IMG/VR virus record: IMGVR_UViG_3300033145_002015
Span: 26,600 to 90,599 of that record
DNA from: a virus
Lineage: Duplodnaviria; Caudoviricetes
Length of the DNA: 64,000 nucleotides
Strand: one strand, 5' to 3'
The first letter of the stretch is position 1. The number at the start of each line of letters is the position of its first letter. The position numbers were made by a program, and so were the translations under genes. The notes under the pieces are model-generated. The model was not told where the DNA came from. It did no database searches and was given only the letters and a program-made list of their open reading frames with translations. Positions 37,068 through 64,000 of this stretch are shown piece after piece.

Positions 37068-38009
37068 CTATTCAGTCTTTTCTTTCCAGTGTTCGAGCCA
37101 ATCCATAATGGATATGGCTTGGCGATCTTTGATCATTTTACGATGATTTTTACATTTGTTCAACACATCTTCGAGGATTGCCTGGAGAACCCTCGGATTA
37201 CCTTTCCGATGCTGTATAAACCTGGTAGCTAGCTCCTCTCCGCCGAATATATAGGTCGCAATAGTTCGATTTCGAGTATAGTCATCACCATTCCAATAGT
37301 AATTCCTTTTTTCTCCATGATGAAACAATGGAGGTCCTGGCATGATCCATTTCTTCTTTCCTAGAACTGCCAAGGTATAGTTCATGAAGTTCTCCCCGCC
37401 GCCGTAGATTCCTAATTCGGTCGGCCAGCCACCAACTTCGTCATACAATTCTCTAGTGATCATCATACCGCAGGTGGACATGCAAGGAACTTCATATGGA
37501 TACTCTCTGTCCCGATATCTAGTGAAACTGTAATGAATCTCTCCATGATCCAGATTTACGACTAATTTATAGATCAACTTCCGCCATTCCAGAATATGAT
37601 AGGTCAGCGGGAGATGAATAGACCCATTCAACTGTTCATGCGCTTCCTGATAAACCCTCAGCATATTGTAAATGGAATTTCTACTCACGATGCAATGAGC
37701 ATCAATAAACAACAGAAACTTGCCTGAAGATTCGGCCACACCTAAATTTTTGGCCTGCCAATGTGATAGTTTGGCGTCGTACTTCAATGGTTTGAGCCAC
37801 GGGAGACCTCTCGCTACGGCAGGAATCTGTTCACTCGCACGGTCGGGCTTTTTCCCTCCGCCTTGCTTAGCGACCTCATCGCAAAAATTATCCACTGCCA
37901 GAATCTCAAAGTCCACTCGATCTCGAAGTTCTTCTGCAATTGATCTTATGGTGAATACAACCTGCGGATATTCCAGACAATATGGAACTATCACTGACAG
38001 CTCAGCCAT
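37068..38009 (-). CDS. GT-A glycosyltransferase with polypeptide GalNAc-transferase (GT27/GT60)-like motifs
   Basis: LSVIVP, EILAVDN, LLFIDAHC (DxH), PCMSTCGMMITRELYDEVGGW..LGIYGGGEN, then H. Confidence 0.8.
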   Translation of the reverse strand: MAELSVIVPYCLEYPQVVFTIRSIAEELRDRVDFEILAVDNFCDEVAKQGGGKKPDRASEQIPAVARGLPWLKPLKYDAKLSHWQAKNLGVAESSGKFLLFIDAHCIVSRNSIYNMLRVYQEAHEQLNGSIHLPLTYHILEWRKLIYKLVVNLDHGEIHYSFTRYRDREYPYEVPCMSTCGMMITRELYDEVGGWPTELGIYGGGENFMNYTLAVLGKKKWIMPGPPLFHHGEKRNYYWNGDDYTRNRTIATYIFGGEELATRFIQHRKGNPRVLQAILEDVLNKCKNHRKMIKDRQAISIMDWLEHWKEKTE

Positions 38010-38014
38010 AACAT

Positions 38015-38503
38015 TTATTCTCCTTTCTTTCCGATATGCTGAGGAGGTTTCCGAAAACCACGTTCGATCAAAATCCGTTCTTTGAATGCTGAAAAACCGA
38101 TCACTAGATCTGGAGCTAGATATGAAATATCCTCGATCCGAACGGATGCGAAGTAAACAATCGGAGACCAAAACATCTTAACCTGATATTCTCCAGGATT
38201 CTGCGCAAGTGTCAGATAGAATCCTTCGGATTTTTTCAGCAATCCATAATAATCAATCACTAAAGCCTTTGGATAATCAAATGAGATTCCCATCAGCTTC
38301 CCGAATCTTGTGGAAGACAATCTCCCGTGTCGAACGGGAACCAGAATATGTTGTGAAAAAAATCCCTGCTCAAAGCCATTGATGATGACCTGCTCTTCAA
38401 AAGCCTGAAGGTATTTGCGAAAGGCATCACCTTTCGGCATCGGTTCAATTAAACTGTTCCCAGACCGTAAAGAACGCCTTATTTCCTTTTTTTCTGAATC
38501 CAT
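38015..38503 (-). CDS. hypothetical protein within the glycan cluster
   Basis: fills the gap between two GTs; probable start near 38440. Confidence 0.5.
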   Translation of the reverse strand: MDSEKKEIRRSLRSGNSLIEPMPKGDAFRKYLQAFEEQVIINGFEQGFFSQHILVPVRHGRLSSTRFGKLMGISFDYPKALVIDYYGLLKKSEGFYLTLAQNPGEYQVKMFWSPIVYFASVRIEDISYLAPDLVIGFSAFKERILIERGFRKPPQHIGKKGE

Positions 38504-39194
38504 GCTTCACCATCCATTCTCGCCCGATGTCACGAACTGTCGGCGGAGATAATGGTTTGGCGTATACACCATATCTCCACCTTAGAACTTCTTCCATGAG
38601 TTGAGGATGCCCGTGATGAAACTGCTTTTCGGGATTGCTGTTTGAAGATAACCATACAACCGTGTTTTTTACGAATTCGCCTCTTATCAAAGACGGATGA
38701 CCACAGAAACCTACTTCCAATTTATGTTCGGCGGGGCATTCAAAGAATTCTCCATTCCACGGGAAGAAAAAACGCCAATTCTTAGAATACGTGTCGCTCG
38801 TTGGTCTGAACGGCAATCGCAGGATCGCAAGATCTTGGTGTCGTTCCATGATCGACAGCATTTCTGACATATCAATCTTCGATACAATTTCCCAATCATC
38901 TTCAAGATGAAAAACAAAAGGCGCTTCGACTGCCTTCCATACCCTGATAAATGCGTTGGGAAAATTAGCCTGCGATGGGAGAAACGGCATAACTTGGTGC
39001 TGTTTTGGATCAAATACTGTTGTTACGAAGTCCAAGGTTTCGGCTTGGCACGAAGTCCCGATTGGATCAATATTGATAATAAGACGATATCGACCATTAT
39101 ATTCGACATTATCAAGAAATGACTCCAGAGTTCTGACAATGACTTCTGGTCGGCAGGTTGCCGTCATGGTTATGTCAACCCAAGAATTGAACAT
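38445..39194 (-). CDS. GT-A fold glycosyltransferase (GT2-like)
   Basis: VDITMTATCRPEVIVRTLES, IINID, FVFHLEDDW. Confidence 0.7.
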   Translation of the reverse strand: MFNSWVDITMTATCRPEVIVRTLESFLDNVEYNGRYRLIINIDPIGTSCQAETLDFVTTVFDPKQHQVMPFLPSQANFPNAFIRVWKAVEAPFVFHLEDDWEIVSKIDMSEMLSIMERHQDLAILRLPFRPTSDTYSKNWRFFFPWNGEFFECPAEHKLEVGFCGHPSLIRGEFVKNTVVWLSSNSNPEKQFHHGHPQLMEEVLRWRYGVYAKPLSPPTVRDIGREWMVKHGFRKKGNKAFFTVWEQFN

Positions 39195-39937
39195 ACCTCG
39201 GCCTCCTGCTCTTCCACATTGTCCGGGAGCATAAGCTCCATGTTCTTGTACAAATTTTTATGATTGATCTTGCGATCTTTTATTGTCTTATATTTTTGAA
39301 GCCCATCCAATGTTGGTTTTGGCATGCCAAGTATATTGCATAAACCTAAAATATAGGATTCGTCGGATAGTCTCGCCAATTCAGAAAGAACAACCTTTCC
39401 GCCAGCAGCTAGAACCCGTTCTCCGCAACGCTTTGCTCTGCTTGCCATTTCTAAAGTATACCAATAAATCAATTGATAATCTGATAGCTTGGTCCAAACA
39501 GGTCCCAGCTTATGGATACAGATTGAAGATACTGGATGAATGTAATAAGTAAGACCTCGTTTGCTCCTTCCTGGAATATCGTTCAGCCTGAGCATAGACA
39601 GGCAAATGTCACGGTAGGGTCTTCGGTGGATGATGAGATCATAATGAATACCCAAGTCAGATAATGCCTTATCAAATTCAATCAAAAAGAAATGGCTGGC
39701 CTCAAAATAGATTCGACAATTCTGAGCCGCAATTGATTGCAGCTTCTCATCTTTCCAAAAACTTTTCGGATCGGCTCCAGCGCAAACTTTTTCAATCCAT
39801 GGCGCATACGCTGGTTGAGGTTCGTGGAAGGCTTTCGTGGACGGATTATCATGATACAAAGCTGAAAACAGAGAAGCGATATATTTGGTCCCGCTTCTGG
39901 CAGGTGCGGCCACGAATATGAATTGTCTCGGAATCAA
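39170..39937 (-). CDS. sulfotransferase-like protein
   Basis: FVAAPARSGTKYI (5'-PSB loop), FHEP, HRRPYRDICLS (3'-PB-like). Confidence 0.65.
   Translation of the reverse strand: MIPRQFIFVAAPARSGTKYIASLFSALYHDNPSTKAFHEPQPAYAPWIEKVCAGADPKSFWKDEKLQSIAAQNCRIYFEASHFFLIEFDKALSDLGIHYDLIIHRRPYRDICLSMLRLNDIPGRSKRGLTYYIHPVSSICIHKLGPVWTKLSDYQLIYWYTLEMASRAKRCGERVLAAGGKVVLSELARLSDESYILGLCNILGMPKPTLDGLQKYKTIKDRKINHKNLYKNMELMLPDNVEEQEAEVCSILGLT
39728..39741. repeat. dispersed palindrome copy 8 (CGCAATTGATTGCA)
   Basis: inside the sulfotransferase-like gene, read as LQSIA. Confidence 0.9.
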
Positions 39938-62795: not shown

Positions 62796-63172
62796 TAGAT
62801 AGTGCTCCCTTCGCAGGTGACGGCATAGGCCGCATCCAGCAGCCGTTCGATGGCGGCTACTTTCAGTGTCTTGCCATCGTCTACGATTTGGTCCTTCAGT
62901 GACATGCCAGATGGAGCATCTGCATATCTAATGATATATACAGGCCATCCAGCTTGCACTGCCCCTACCGCTTCTGTGGCCGAACGAAGAGAATGCTCTA
63001 ATTTGATGGCAACGATTCCATCAGAATCAGAAAATACATCCACATTCGTCCCGGCATTCCTATCAAAAGCCGTACTTACGAATTTGCGATATGTAATCGT
63101 AGTCGTCAGACGAGATTCCGAACACAAAGCATCCAAAATTTCCTTTATGCTCAAAGAAACCTCGTCCAGCAT
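62795..63172 (-). CDS. head closure/head-tail adaptor
   Basis: 125-aa beta-rich protein in the head-tail joining block. Confidence 0.6.
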   Translation of the reverse strand: MLDEVSLSIKEILDALCSESRLTTTITYRKFVSTAFDRNAGTNVDVFSDSDGIVAIKLEHSLRSATEAVGAVQAGWPVYIIRYADAPSGMSLKDQIVDDGKTLKVAAIERLLDAAYAVTCEGSTI

Positions 63173-63182
63173 TTTATGATCC

Positions 63183-63863
63183 TCACGCAGTCGTAGTCGT
63201 TGTAGTGGTGGATGTGGTAGTGGTCGTTGTGGTTGTGGTCGTAGTTACCACCTCAATTCGATCACTATAAGCAGCGGCCTGGCGATCATCATAGCTATCT
63301 ACCCTGCGAAGCCTTATCTGTGCAAGGTAAGGCTTCATCCGCAAGGCGATGACGGACGTAGCCAGCAGATTTTTATCACTCAGCAGAAATTCAAGCTGAG
63401 GTCTGGGTTGATCGGACTCTAACGTAACCGACAGCGAAGCAATCCTAAAACTACGTACTCTTCGAGGACTGGCCGCATCGTCCATCCCTTCCGGCGGATA
63501 TAGCGGAGCAATAATTGAAGCGGCGATCAACACCTGCGTTTCCTTAACCACATCAGGAATGATCGTCCGATCATATTGCACCGTGCGAGGGAATGCCATC
63601 GACTGTTCTTCATATCCTTCAGACAAGATGGAACCATCTGTGTCATATAAAGGATAATACATCCGATTGACCTTCCTCCCGCGGAGAGGCAGACGATCAA
63701 GAGCAGCGGCTGCAAGGATTAAACAATACTCCTTCGCCGCATCGGACAGCGCATCCCACGCAGCAGTATCGTAATGCGCTTGCCCTGCAATTGAATTCGC
63801 CTCTTCCAAGGAGACGTAGCTGTTGGATCTGGGTCCCCCGACCGTCGTAATTAGCGCCATCAA
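63183..63863 (-). CDS. head-tail connector (gp6/gp15-like, DnaT_2-type) with poly-Thr tail
   Basis: GGPRSNSYVSLEEA..Q.MAFPR..IPDVVKETQ; ends VTTTTTTTTTTTSTTTTTTTA. Confidence 0.75.
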   Translation of the reverse strand: MMALITTVGGPRSNSYVSLEEANSIAGQAHYDTAAWDALSDAAKEYCLILAAAALDRLPLRGRKVNRMYYPLYDTDGSILSEGYEEQSMAFPRTVQYDRTIIPDVVKETQVLIAASIIAPLYPPEGMDDAASPRRVRSFRIASLSVTLESDQPRPQLEFLLSDKNLLATSVIALRMKPYLAQIRLRRVDSYDDRQAAAYSDRIEVVTTTTTTTTTTTSTTTTTTTA

Positions 63864-63871
63864 TCAACCCA

Positions 63872-64000
63872 TTATGCAGTAGTAGTCGTTGTACTACTGG
63901 TCGTACTGCTGCTACTGGTCGTACTACTGGTCGTACTGCTGCTACTGGTCGTACTGCTGCTACTGGTCGTACTACTGGTCGTACTGCTGCTACTGGTCGT
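63872..64000 (-). CDS. 3' end of a truncated head-module gene; only its Ser/Thr tail is visible
   Basis: the 42 codons before TAA read TTSSSSTTSSTTSSSSTTSSSSTTSSTTSSSSTTSSTTTTTA; built from 12/18-nt tandem units. Confidence 0.7.
   Translation of the reverse strand, partial: TTSSSSTTSSTTSSSSTTSSSSTTSSTTSSSSTTSSTTTTTA

What the first reader, a model, noticed from the sequence alone, without database searches (positions are those of the whole stretch)
37068..64000. Candidate phage-encoded mucin-type virion glycocalyx system (Thr-tailed structural proteins plus a glycan-building cluster in one operon)
Seen in sequence: the same minus-strand late operon contains (a) eight structural ORFs with Thr/Ser tracts and (b) a contiguous 7-kb block (37068-44099) of 5 glycosyltransferases, 2 SAM methyltransferases and a sulfotransferase-like gene. 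One of the GTs carries motifs resembling the enzymes that start mucin O-glycosylation. Established: some mycobacteriophages (e.g. Che8) use their own GTs to glycosylate capsid and tail tube C-termini, and mucins are defined by densely O-glycosylated Thr/Ser tracts. Inference: this phage adds dedicated multi-site acceptor peptides to many virion proteins and coats them with a branched, methylated, possibly sulfated glycan, making a bottle-brush coat. Possible roles are shielding from proteases or host recognition, adhesion to biofilm or mucus, or stability. I know of no described phage system that pairs mucin-like acceptor tails with an initiating GT.
Basis: partly seen in the sequence, partly recalled or inferred. 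Interest (0 to 1): 0.95.

Follow-up and report, generated by a model that had tools for sequence, protein, structure and literature searches.

The report
Phage threonine tails with GalNAc-T-like glycosyltransferase
An uncultured tailed phage ends many of its particle proteins in threonine-rich tails and carries a gene cluster led by an enzyme shaped like the animal enzymes that start mucin sugar coats; related phages have the tails only when they have the enzyme, so the phage very probably sugar-coats its own particle, though no sugar has been measured.

Summary
Eight late ORFs carry Thr/Ser tracts: six are C-terminal tails and two are internal. The block 37068-44099 holds five glycosyltransferases, two SAM methyltransferases and a weakly supported sulfotransferase-like gene. 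The 37068-38009 enzyme is ppGalNAc-T-like (GT27-like) by both profile and fold, and it is soluble and lacks the lectin domain.

New evidence here:
- Among phages sharing this portal, all 7 genomes with the enzyme have Thr-tailed virion proteins. None of 10 complete genomes without it has such tails.
- Tail tube, capsid and adaptor orthologs gain or lose the tail together with the enzyme.
- Seven further complete or near-complete genomes in which this portal profile finds no match show the same pairing.
- Accessory genes vary, while the GT27-like and GT4-like genes are the most widely kept.

The link between tails and enzyme is therefore well supported in silico. The sugars, branching, methylation and sulfation are all untested.

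The nearest known system is the glycosylation of capsid and tail tube in mycobacteriophage Che8, which uses unrelated enzymes, so this is a new variant of a known kind. I found no paper describing it. Earlier notes of this scan (AI-written, unchecked) report the same theme in at least 16 other genomes.

The parts
63872..64000 (-). 3' end of an ORF cut by the window edge. All 41 visible residues before the last one are Thr or Ser. Probably the major capsid protein, judged by gene order in relatives.
   Evidence: A 48-nt tandem duplication lies inside it. In G014, G013 and G008 the capsid ortholog lies upstream of Ad1 (directly in G014, with a 99-codon open frame between in G013) and ends in TTTV, TTT and TTTTT.
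63183..63863 (-). Head-tail adaptor Ad1 with a 19-residue Thr tail (63189-63245).
   Evidence: phrog_477, E 3.4e-16. Tract. Orthologs in G012 and G008 are tailed; the ortholog in G016, which lacks the GT27-like gene, is not.
61253..61819 (-). Major tail tube protein with a 12-residue Thr tail (61259-61294).
   Evidence: phrog_807, E 1.8e-29. Six orthologs in genomes with the GT27-like gene are Thr-tailed. The G020 ortholog, in a genome without it, ends without a tail.
54196..55905 (-). Distal tail protein with a short internal Thr/Pro-rich stretch and a ConA-like (Laminin_G_3) domain.
   Evidence: phrog_1082, E 8.5e-31. Pfam Laminin_G_3, E 1.9e-8. Sequence.
49068..52301 (-). Tail tip / host-specificity-like protein with an internal Thr/Ser tract (49272-49364) and an F5/8 type C domain.
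   Evidence: phrog_1101, E 2.4e-71. Pfam F5_F8_type_C, E 1.1e-15. Tract.
47543..48001 (-). Small 152-aa protein whose C-terminal 63 residues are almost all Thr/Ser (47549-47737).
   Evidence: A homolog exists in G001. No family hit.
45238..46527 (-). Tail tube paralog with an inserted SPRY domain and a long Thr/Ser tail (45244-45417).
   Evidence: phrog_807, E 1.4e-14. Pfam SPRY, E 1.2e-12. Tracts.
44124..45194 (-). 356-aa late protein with a 17-residue Thr tail (44130-44180). Possibly carbohydrate-binding; this is a lead only.
   Evidence: No PHROG or Pfam hit. Language-model neighbours include DNRLRE/CBM96-like clusters at 0.85-0.91.
42837..44099 (-). GT-B glycosyltransferase (GT4/GT1-like), a core member of the module.
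   Evidence: Pfam Glycos_transf_1, E 9.4e-6. phrog_2170. Homologs in 27 of 32 related loci. The family profile has no PDB sequence match.
42172..42849 (-). Probable GT-A (GT2-like) glycosyltransferase.
   Evidence: Pfam Glycos_transf_2, E 8.8e-4, below cut-off. Homologs in 16 of 32 loci.
41051..42175 (-). GT-B glycosyltransferase (GT1-like).
   Evidence: Pfam E 6.3e-5. phrog_2170. Family profile matches the C-terminal halves of GT-B enzymes in the PDB, E 4e-5. Homologs in 23 of 32 loci.
40521..41087 (-). SAM methyltransferase (Methyltransf_24, with a weaker CmcI/rhamnosyl O-methyltransferase-like hit).
   Evidence: Pfam E 9.8e-14. Homologs in 9 of 32 loci.
39934..40578 (-). SAM methyltransferase (Methyltransf_23).
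   Evidence: Pfam E 1.4e-9. Homologs in 25 of 32 loci.
39170..39937 (-). Sulfotransferase-like protein on weak evidence; a variable accessory gene.
   Evidence: Pfam Sulfotransfer_1, E 1.8e-3, below cut-off. No PDB match. Atlas neighbours are sulfotransferase clusters at 0.95-0.98. No homolog in any of the 32 loci.
38445..39194 (-). GT-A fold glycosyltransferase with an invariant E-D-D motif, unrecognised by Pfam.
   Evidence: Alignment A3. Model pLDDT 94.5. Foldseek top hits are SpsA, K4CP, TarP and WrtF. Homologs in 24 of 32 loci.
38015..38503 (-). Conserved 162-aa protein of unknown function that travels with the module.
   Evidence: No family hit. Homologs in 12 loci, and also in G001 and G013.
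37068..38009 (-). Soluble 313-aa GT-A enzyme closest to polypeptide GalNAc-transferases (GT27-like). Candidate initiating enzyme.
   Evidence: Pfam GT2. Invariant D103-x-H105, G204-G205-E206 and H230. In the PDB profile search the top 7 hits are ppGalNAc-Ts, E 3e-10 to 5e-8. Model pLDDT 94.7. All listed Foldseek hits, to rank 48, are ppGalNAc-Ts with TM 0.65-0.78. No TM segment.

Best explanation
This is a phage-encoded system that O-glycosylates the phage's own particle.

The proposed sequence of events is as follows. Late in infection the structural proteins are made with Thr-rich C-terminal tails. These proteins include the adaptor, the tail tube, a tube paralog, tip and fibre-associated proteins and probably the capsid protein. 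The tails end in one small hydrophobic residue. A soluble cytoplasmic GT-A enzyme (37068-38009), built like the catalytic domain of polypeptide GalNAc-transferases, uses a host UDP-sugar to put the first sugar on the Thr/Ser hydroxyls. Four further glycosyltransferases (two GT-A, two GT-B) extend the chains. Two SAM methyltransferases, and perhaps a sulfotransferase-like enzyme, decorate them. The result is a hydrated glycan brush on head, neck and tail.

Shown here: the gene content, the fold and motifs of the enzyme, and the strict co-occurrence of tails and enzyme.

Inferred: that sugars are attached at all, the donor, the order of the steps and the decoration.

My best guess for the benefit is steric and hydration shielding of the virion surface against sticking, proteolysis or recognition. 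The glycan chemistry would be under diversifying selection, because the accessory genes differ between close relatives.
For: 1. Enzyme.
- A profile of 30 homologs finds ppGalNAc-Ts as its top seven PDB hits, over profile positions 3-241.
- The AlphaFold model (pLDDT 94.7) has ppGalNAc-Ts as every listed Foldseek hit, to rank 48.
- The DxH motif, the GGE motif and the distal His are invariant.
- No protein of the cluster has a membrane segment.

2. Co-occurrence.
- 32 IMG/VR loci carry homologs. About 22 of them show Thr/Ser tracts within 10 kb.
- The four records at least 90% complete that had no tract nearby have poly-Thr elsewhere in the genome.

3. Matched control, among 24 long genomes sharing this portal.
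- 6 carry the enzyme. All 6, and the window, have Thr-tailed ORFs.
- 10 complete genomes without the enzyme have no ORF ending in four or more Thr plus A, V or I.
- Fisher p = 5e-5, not corrected for relatedness.

4. Ortholog level.
- Tail tube orthologs are tailed in WIN, G013, G014, G012, G008, G002 and G004, but not in G020.
- Capsid orthologs are tailed in G014, G013 and G008, but not in the 10 genomes that lack the enzyme.

5. Other lineages. Seven complete or near-complete genomes with the enzyme, in which the portal profile finds no match, also have tracts.

6. Carriers of the tails in other genomes are virion proteins: tube, Ad1, distal tail and major head.

7. G020 keeps a GT4 homolog but has neither the GT27-like gene nor tails. 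This points to the GT27-like enzyme as the partner of the tails.

8. Codon use in the tracts is mixed, so the amino acid is what is selected, not a DNA repeat.

9. A more distant family member is fused to a PqqD-type peptide-binding domain.

10. Precedent: mycobacteriophages glycosylate capsid and tail tube with their own GTs (PMC12363180).
Against: - No biochemical observation exists. Everything here is correlation plus homology.
- Donor sugar and linkage are unknown, and the window encodes no nucleotide-sugar pathway in the ORFs I scanned.
- Identity to ppGalNAc-Ts is only 13-18%, and the lectin domain and membrane anchor are absent.
- Pfam's Glyco_transf_7C model is not matched by any of the 30 family members.
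- Poly-Thr runs occur widely in viral contigs without this enzyme nearby: only 2 weak GT2 hits in 118 loci. That sample has short flanks and includes giant viruses.
- G027 lacks the enzyme but has one ORF with eight Thr near its end.
- Within the portal clade the label needs only about 3-4 changes, so the counts are not independent events.
- The sulfotransferase call is sub-threshold.
Confidence: 0.7

Rival explanations
1. The tails are glycosylated, but the GT27-like enzyme is not the initiator. One of the other glycosyltransferases, for example the GT4-like 42837-44099, adds the first sugar, as GtfA does on streptococcal serine-rich adhesins. The GT27-like enzyme then extends the chain.
For: The GT4-like gene is almost as widely conserved in the module, in 27 of 32 loci. 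Bacterial Ser-rich-repeat glycosylation starts with a GT4 enzyme (my own knowledge). Fold similarity does not fix the acceptor.
Against: G020 keeps a GT4 homolog without the GT27-like gene and has no tails. The GT4 family profile matches no PDB chain, GtfA included. The GT27-like fold is specifically closest to peptide-acting enzymes.
Confidence: 0.12
2. The Thr/Ser tails are unglycosylated disordered bristles or linkers, and the gene cluster modifies something else, such as host envelope polysaccharide, a secreted polymer or phage DNA. The co-occurrence would then reflect shared ancestry or a shared niche.
For: No glycan has been seen. Phage GTs often act on DNA or O-antigen (my own knowledge). 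Part of the association lies inside a single clade. Poly-Thr runs exist in many viral contigs without this enzyme.
Against: - Tails appear and vanish with the enzyme on orthologous proteins.
- They recur in genomes with other portal types.
- No membrane protein, flippase, polymerase or lipid-carrier transferase lies in the cluster.
- The cluster sits inside the late structural operon.
- Known DNA glucosyltransferases do not appear among the closest folds.
Confidence: 0.1
3. The enzyme binds or modifies the Thr tails for an assembly or quality-control purpose, for example transient O-glycosylation or chaperoning during morphogenesis. The mature virion would then carry little or no glycan.
For: Nothing shows that the modification persists in virions. 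The conserved small hydrophobic last residue suggests that a C-terminal motif is recognised.
Against: Five GTs plus methyltransferases imply an elaborate final glycan rather than a transient mark. The accessory genes vary between relatives, as surface glycans do. The Che8 precedent has glycans on mature virions (PMC11256854).
Confidence: 0.05

Closest known systems
Polypeptide N-acetylgalactosaminyltransferases (CAZy GT27; e.g. human GalNAc-T2, T10 and T12, Drosophila PGANT9, Toxoplasma GalNAc-T3)
   Same: GT-A catalytic fold with a DxH motif plus a distal His as metal ligands, and a GGE(N) motif. They are the best PDB matches by both profile and fold. The presumed acceptors are dense Thr/Ser tracts.
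   Different: Only 13-18% identity. No ricin-type lectin domain and no membrane anchor, so the enzyme is cytoplasmic rather than Golgi-located. Pfam Glyco_transf_7C is not matched. Donor and stereochemistry are unknown. The acceptors are nearly pure Thr/Ser with almost no Pro.
Virion glycosylation of mycobacteriophages Che8, Corndog and Myrna (Freeman et al. 2023, as cited in PMC12363180 and PMC11256854)
   Same: Phage-encoded glycosyltransferases modify the phage's own capsid and tail tube subunits. Attachment at the C-terminal ends is my recollection of the abstract.
   Different: Window GTs 37068, 38445 and 42837 have no tblastn match in any mycobacteriophage among 50,697 GenBank phage records; the other two GTs were not searched. 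Here the tails are homopolymeric Thr runs on many more virion proteins. The host is probably a Gram-negative sediment bacterium. Nothing has been measured.
Serine-rich-repeat adhesin glycosylation in streptococci and staphylococci (GtfA/GtfB and follow-on GTs)
   Same: A dedicated multi-GT cluster is paired with long Ser/Thr-rich acceptor tracts and glycosylates them in the cytoplasm.
   Different: The initiator there is a GT4 pair and the substrate is exported by an accessory Sec system. Here the best initiator candidate is a GT-A enzyme, no export genes are present, and the GT4 profile matches no solved GtfA.
Self-encoded glycosylation of giant viruses (chloroviruses, Mimivirus fibrils; PMC9614988)
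   Same: The virus brings its own cytoplasmic glycosylation machinery, including methylated sugars, to coat its particle.
   Different: Different enzymes, linkages and hosts. Those are eukaryotic viruses with their own nucleotide-sugar pathways.

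Membership tests
CAZy GT27 polypeptide GalNAc-transferase | GT-A catalytic domain whose nearest relatives by sequence profile and by fold are ppGalNAc-Ts | tested here: met
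   The top 7 PDB profile hits have E 3e-10 to 5e-8. All listed Foldseek hits, to rank 48, are ppGalNAc-Ts with TM 0.65-0.78.
CAZy GT27 polypeptide GalNAc-transferase | DxH motif plus a distal His as Mn2+ ligands | tested here: met
   D103, H105 and H230 are invariant in 30 sequences. They align to the DSH motif and the distal His of GalNAc-T10.
CAZy GT27 polypeptide GalNAc-transferase | Gal/GalNAc-T motif (WGGENxE region; Pfam Glyco_transf_7C) | tested here: inconclusive
   G204, G205 and E206 are invariant and align to the GGE of TgGalNAc-T3. None of the 30 members reaches Pfam Glyco_transf_7C. One fused relative does.
CAZy GT27 polypeptide GalNAc-transferase | C-terminal ricin-type lectin domain | tested here: not met
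   The protein is 313 aa, the model ends in helices, and there is no lectin hit.
CAZy GT27 polypeptide GalNAc-transferase | Type II membrane anchor and a luminal location | tested here: not met
   No hydrophobic segment is present. The protein starts at the first beta strand.
CAZy GT27 polypeptide GalNAc-transferase | Retaining transfer of GalNAc from UDP-GalNAc to Ser/Thr of a polypeptide | not testable with these tools
   This needs an enzyme assay.
Che8-type mycobacteriophage virion glycosylation | Phage-encoded glycosyltransferases together with capsid and tail tube subunits that carry the acceptor at the C-terminus | tested here: inconclusive
   GTs are present. The tail tube has a C-terminal Thr tail, and capsid orthologs in relatives have one. 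The window's own capsid gene is cut off at the window edge.
Che8-type mycobacteriophage virion glycosylation | Homology of the enzymes to the Che8 and Corndog glycosyltransferases | tested here: not met
   tblastn of three window GTs against 50,697 phage records gave no mycobacteriophage hit. The other two GTs (41051-42175, 42172-42849) were not searched.
Che8-type mycobacteriophage virion glycosylation | O-linked glycans detected on virion proteins | not testable with these tools
   This needs mass spectrometry or glycan staining.
Serine-rich-repeat protein glycosylation (GtfA/GtfB type) | A GT4 GtfA/GtfB initiating pair and accessory Sec export | tested here: not met
   The GT4 family profile has no PDB match. 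The cluster holds no export or membrane genes.
Mucin-type (PTS) domain | Long tracts dominated by Thr/Ser, usually with Pro, that are densely O-glycosylated | tested here: inconclusive
   230 of 235 tract residues are Thr or Ser, but the counted tracts contain no Pro codon. Glycosylation has not been measured.

The most novel reading that the evidence does not exclude
Mucin-type O-glycosylation, meaning a ppGalNAc-T-like enzyme that starts glycans on dense Thr tracts, is not confined to eukaryotes. A widespread set of environmental phages would use a soluble, lectin-less version of the enzyme to build a true mucin-like glycocalyx over capsid, neck and tail, with fast-evolving decorations. The phage and bacterial enzymes would be relatives, or even forerunners, of the animal GT27 family.
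Probability: 0.4. Interest if true: 0.9.

Novelty: new variant of a known kind. Interest (0 to 1): 0.8.

Why it matters
Virion glycosylation by phages has been shown only for a few mycobacteriophages. From my recollection of Freeman et al. 2023, it was thought rare elsewhere.

If this system works as proposed:
- A second, unrelated route exists, and it is spread over several lineages of uncultured phages.
- It uses an enzyme type regarded as the hallmark of eukaryotic mucin biosynthesis.
- It uses genetically simple acceptor tags, runs of Thr at the C-terminus.

That would change how phage surfaces are thought about, including adsorption, stability, immune and defence recognition, and mass-based proteomics of viromes. 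It would bear on the origin of GT27 enzymes. It could also offer a compact, cytoplasmic tag-plus-enzyme pair for glycoengineering proteins in bacteria.

Tried and rejected
- **Tail tube search.** A single-sequence search for tail tube relatives in viral contigs found nothing usable. I switched to a portal alignment.
- **Reverse test.** I fetched 118 viral loci holding 12 consecutive ACN codons and looked for the enzyme. Only 2 weak GT2 hits came back. The flanks are short, the reading frame is not controlled and giant viruses are included, so this test is uninformative. It says only that poly-Thr is not exclusive to this system.
- **Relaxed DNA pattern.** A (WCN)x9 pattern for mixed Thr/Ser mostly hit the antisense of acidic tracts, so I discarded it. 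I scanned translated genomes instead.
- **G013.** It first looked like a genome with the enzyme but no tails. At protein level it has 5-7 virion ORFs ending in TTTT(T)V or I, so it is not a counterexample.
- **Thr tail replacing the Ig-like domain.** I rejected the idea that the Thr tail sits where relatives carry an Ig-like domain. In Serratia phage Smarc1 that domain is an internal insertion.
- **Fused relatives.** Two fused relatives are not fusions with the 38445-type GT. Pfam shows them to be tandem GT2 domains.
- **GT-B profiles.** PDB profile searches for the two GT-B enzymes gave nothing specific.
- **Freeman et al. 2023.** The paper itself is not held. Its content is cited through PMC12363180 and PMC11256854 and from memory.
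- **Literature.** Four searches for a prior description of this pairing found none.

Full report
**What the window is.** All sizeable ORFs lie on the minus strand. No whole genome is held for the window, and it has no near match among GenBank phages.

PHROG and Pfam scans identify a siphophage late module:
- Ad1 adaptor, 63183-63863
- Neck1-like protein, 62271-62795
- tail tube, 61253-61819
- chaperone, 60691-61110
- tape measure, 55909-60528
- distal tail and hub proteins of the phrog_1082, phrog_778 and phrog_1101 type, 46524-55905
- a tail tube paralog with a SPRY insert, 45238-46527

Downstream of the glycan block come an Mtd-like protein, a DNA polymerase, a portal and replication genes. 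From 35673 to 55905 the genes overlap or are at most 57 nt apart. No intergenic terminator-like site separates the tail genes from the glycan block. Co-transcription is therefore plausible, though not shown.

A six-frame scan finds nine Thr/Ser tracts of at least 12 residues, or tracts adjoining them, all between 44130 and 64000. Six ORFs end in a tract followed by one final Val or Ala, including the ORF cut by the window edge. Two ORFs hold internal tracts.

Of 235 tract residues, 230 are Thr or Ser. The four Thr codons are used 31, 33, 50 and 42 times, and all six Ser codons occur. In non-structural genes Thr is 4.9% and Ser 6.6%. The tracts are therefore selected as amino acids and are not slippage of one triplet. 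The exception is a recent 48-nt tandem duplication in the cut ORF.

**The glycan block.** It contains:
- a GT2 enzyme, 37068-38009
- two GT-B enzymes, 41051-42175 and 42837-44099
- a weak GT2, 42172-42849
- two SAM methyltransferases, 39934-40578 and 40521-41087
- a sub-threshold sulfotransferase-like protein, 39170-39937

The ORF 38445-39194 has no Pfam or PDB sequence match. With 23 homologs it folds confidently (pLDDT 94.5) into a GT-A glycosyltransferase whose closest folds are SpsA, K4CP, TarP and WrtF. The sulfotransferase call gains only language-model support and has no PDB support.

**The lead enzyme.**
- A single-sequence search of the PDB returned ppGalNAc-Ts as its eight best hits, at weak E-values.
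- A profile of 30 homologs (A1) returned ppGalNAc-Ts as its top seven hits, E 3e-10 to 5e-8, over profile positions 3-241.
- The model (pLDDT 94.7, pTM 0.93) has ppGalNAc-Ts as every listed Foldseek hit, to rank 48, with TM 0.65-0.78 on the query.
- D103, H105, G204, G205, E206 and H230 are invariant. They align with the DxH motif, the GGE motif and the distal His of the animal enzymes.
- The protein has no lectin domain and no membrane segment, so it should act in the cytoplasm.
- The family is modest in size: 135 clusters at E 1e-30 and 391 at 1e-10 among 1.84 billion representatives.
- One more distant member is fused to a PqqD-type peptide-binding domain, which fits a peptide substrate.

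**The module is conserved and mobile.** Thirty-two IMG/VR loci encode homologs at 36-68% identity. Around them, window homologs recur as follows:

| Window gene | Loci with a homolog (of 32) |
|---|---|
| GT4-like 42837 | 27 |
| Methyltransferase 39934 | 25 |
| GT-A 38445 | 24 |
| GT1 41051 | 23 |
| GT2 42172 | 16 |
| Unknown 38015 | 12 |
| Methyltransferase 40521 | 9 |
| Sulfotransferase-like 39170 | 0 |

In the closest whole-genome relative, G013, the accessory genes are different: a further GT-B, hexapeptide acyltransferases and a GFO/IDH/MocA oxidoreductase. So the GT27-like and GT4-like genes are the widely kept core, and the decorations vary. None of the three window GTs searched has a counterpart in 50,697 GenBank phage records, apart from a 24%-identical enzyme in Tunturiibacter phage Tunturi_4.

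About 22 of the 32 loci show Thr/Ser tracts within 10 kb. The records at least 90% complete that lacked a nearby tract have poly-Thr elsewhere. Those with none are 15-56% fragments.

For a matched control I aligned the portal (A2) and fetched relatives. Of 24 long genomes, 6 hold the enzyme. Protein-level scans show that all 6, and the window, have virion ORFs ending in Thr runs. This includes G013, whose tails are only 4-5 Thr long. Ten complete genomes without the enzyme have no ORF ending in four or more Thr plus A, V or I. Fisher p is 5e-5, uncorrected for relatedness.

On a portal tree, all enzyme-bearing genomes fall in one well-supported clade of 11. That clade also contains two complete genomes without the enzyme, G016 and G020, and neither has tails.

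At ortholog level:
- The tail tube ends in a Thr run in the window, G013, G014, G012, G008, G002 and G004, but not in G020.
- The capsid protein ends in TTTV, TTT or TTTTT in G014, G013 and G008, but in none of the ten enzyme-less genomes.
- Ad1 is tailed in G012 and G008, but not in G016.

G020 keeps a GT4 homolog but lacks the GT27-like gene. This ties the tails to the GT27-like enzyme.

Seven further complete or near-complete enzyme-bearing genomes have no match to this portal profile, while positive controls match strongly. These seven also carry tracts, so the pairing is not confined to one lineage. In those genomes the tailed proteins are tail tube, Ad1, distal tail, major head and other structural proteins.

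**Limits.**
- No sugar has been seen.
- Donor, linkage, branching, methylation targets and sulfation are all inference.
- Poly-Thr runs are common in viral contigs without this enzyme nearby.
- G027 has one eight-Thr run near a C-terminus without the enzyme.
- Host assignment is weak. Four of the seven MAG contigs with homologs are labelled Desulfobacteraceae or Deltaproteobacteria, but they may be phage contigs that were binned with those genomes.

**Comparison with what is known.** Mycobacteriophages Che8, Corndog and Myrna glycosylate capsid and tail tube subunits with their own GTs (PMC12363180, PMC11256854). From memory of Freeman et al. 2023, the glycans sit at the C-termini and there was little evidence of the trait in other phages. 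The logic here is the same. The enzymes are unrelated at sequence level, and the acceptor is a homopolymeric Thr tag on many more proteins.

I found no paper describing a GT27-like enzyme with poly-Thr virion tails. Earlier AI notes of this scan report the same pairing in at least 16 other genomes. They are leads, not independent evidence.

**Verdict.** This is a real and well-delimited system. The link between tails and the GT27-like enzyme is strongly supported by comparative genomics, and the chemistry is untested. I class it as a new variant of phage virion glycosylation.

Noticed in passing
window:34138-35385 (-): Mtd-like protein (Pfam mtd_2nd, E 4e-23) just downstream of the glycan block. 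It is a possible target of a diversity-generating retroelement. I did not look for a reverse transcriptase or a template repeat.
   Followed up: no
window:45238-46527 (-): A second tail tube gene with a SPRY domain inserted near its N-terminus and the second-longest Thr/Ser tail. The main tube gene lacks the internal Ig-like insertion that cultured relatives carry (Serratia phage Smarc1).
   Followed up: partly
window:44124-64000, and loci L248, L257, L239-L243: The last residues after the Thr run are uniform within a genome but differ between genomes: V or A in the window, V or I in G013, mostly AA in G012, AP in G003. This suggests either that a C-terminal motif is recognised or that the tails are homogenised within a genome. 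It remains unexplained.
   Followed up: partly
L242:8981-20000 and L243:1-3721 (G013): The closest relative replaces the window's methyltransferases and extra GTs with hexapeptide acyltransferases, a GFO/IDH/MocA oxidoreductase and another GT-B. Its Thr tails are much shorter, at 4-5 residues.
   Followed up: partly
P0126: A distant member of the GT27-like family is fused to an N-terminal PqqD domain, the peptide-recognition element of RiPP pathways. This hints at peptide glycosyltransferases in this family outside phages.
   Followed up: no
L311:1567-2565 (Tunturiibacter phage Tunturi_4 gp2): This is the only cultured phage with a homolog (24% identity) that keeps a DxH motif. The gene lies between the terminase and portal genes. 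There are no poly-Thr tails, but the portal C-terminus is Ser/Thr/Pro-rich. It could serve as an experimental entry point.
   Followed up: partly
window:29286-31838 and 27571-29274 (-): A family A DNA polymerase with an N-terminal uracil-DNA-glycosylase-superfamily domain lies directly upstream of a portal gene, far from the head-tail genes. This is an unusual gene order, and it is shared by relatives.
   Followed up: no
window:49068-52301, 54196-55905 and 44124-45194 (-): Several of the Thr-tract proteins also carry lectin-like domains: F5/8 type C, ConA-like Laminin_G_3 and possibly CBM96/DNRLRE-like. The particle may therefore both display and bind glycans.
   Followed up: no
L292, G027:51697-52158: A genome that lacks the GT27-like gene has one 154-aa ORF with eight consecutive Thr three residues before its stop. 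It is the only near-exception in the control set, and I did not identify the protein.
   Followed up: no
L006, L009, L022, L024, L027, L255: Some enzyme-bearing phages encode very large proteins (500-1300 aa) made largely of about 13-residue STTSST-type repeats. These are far longer than the window's tails and look like true mucin-like fibres.
   Followed up: no
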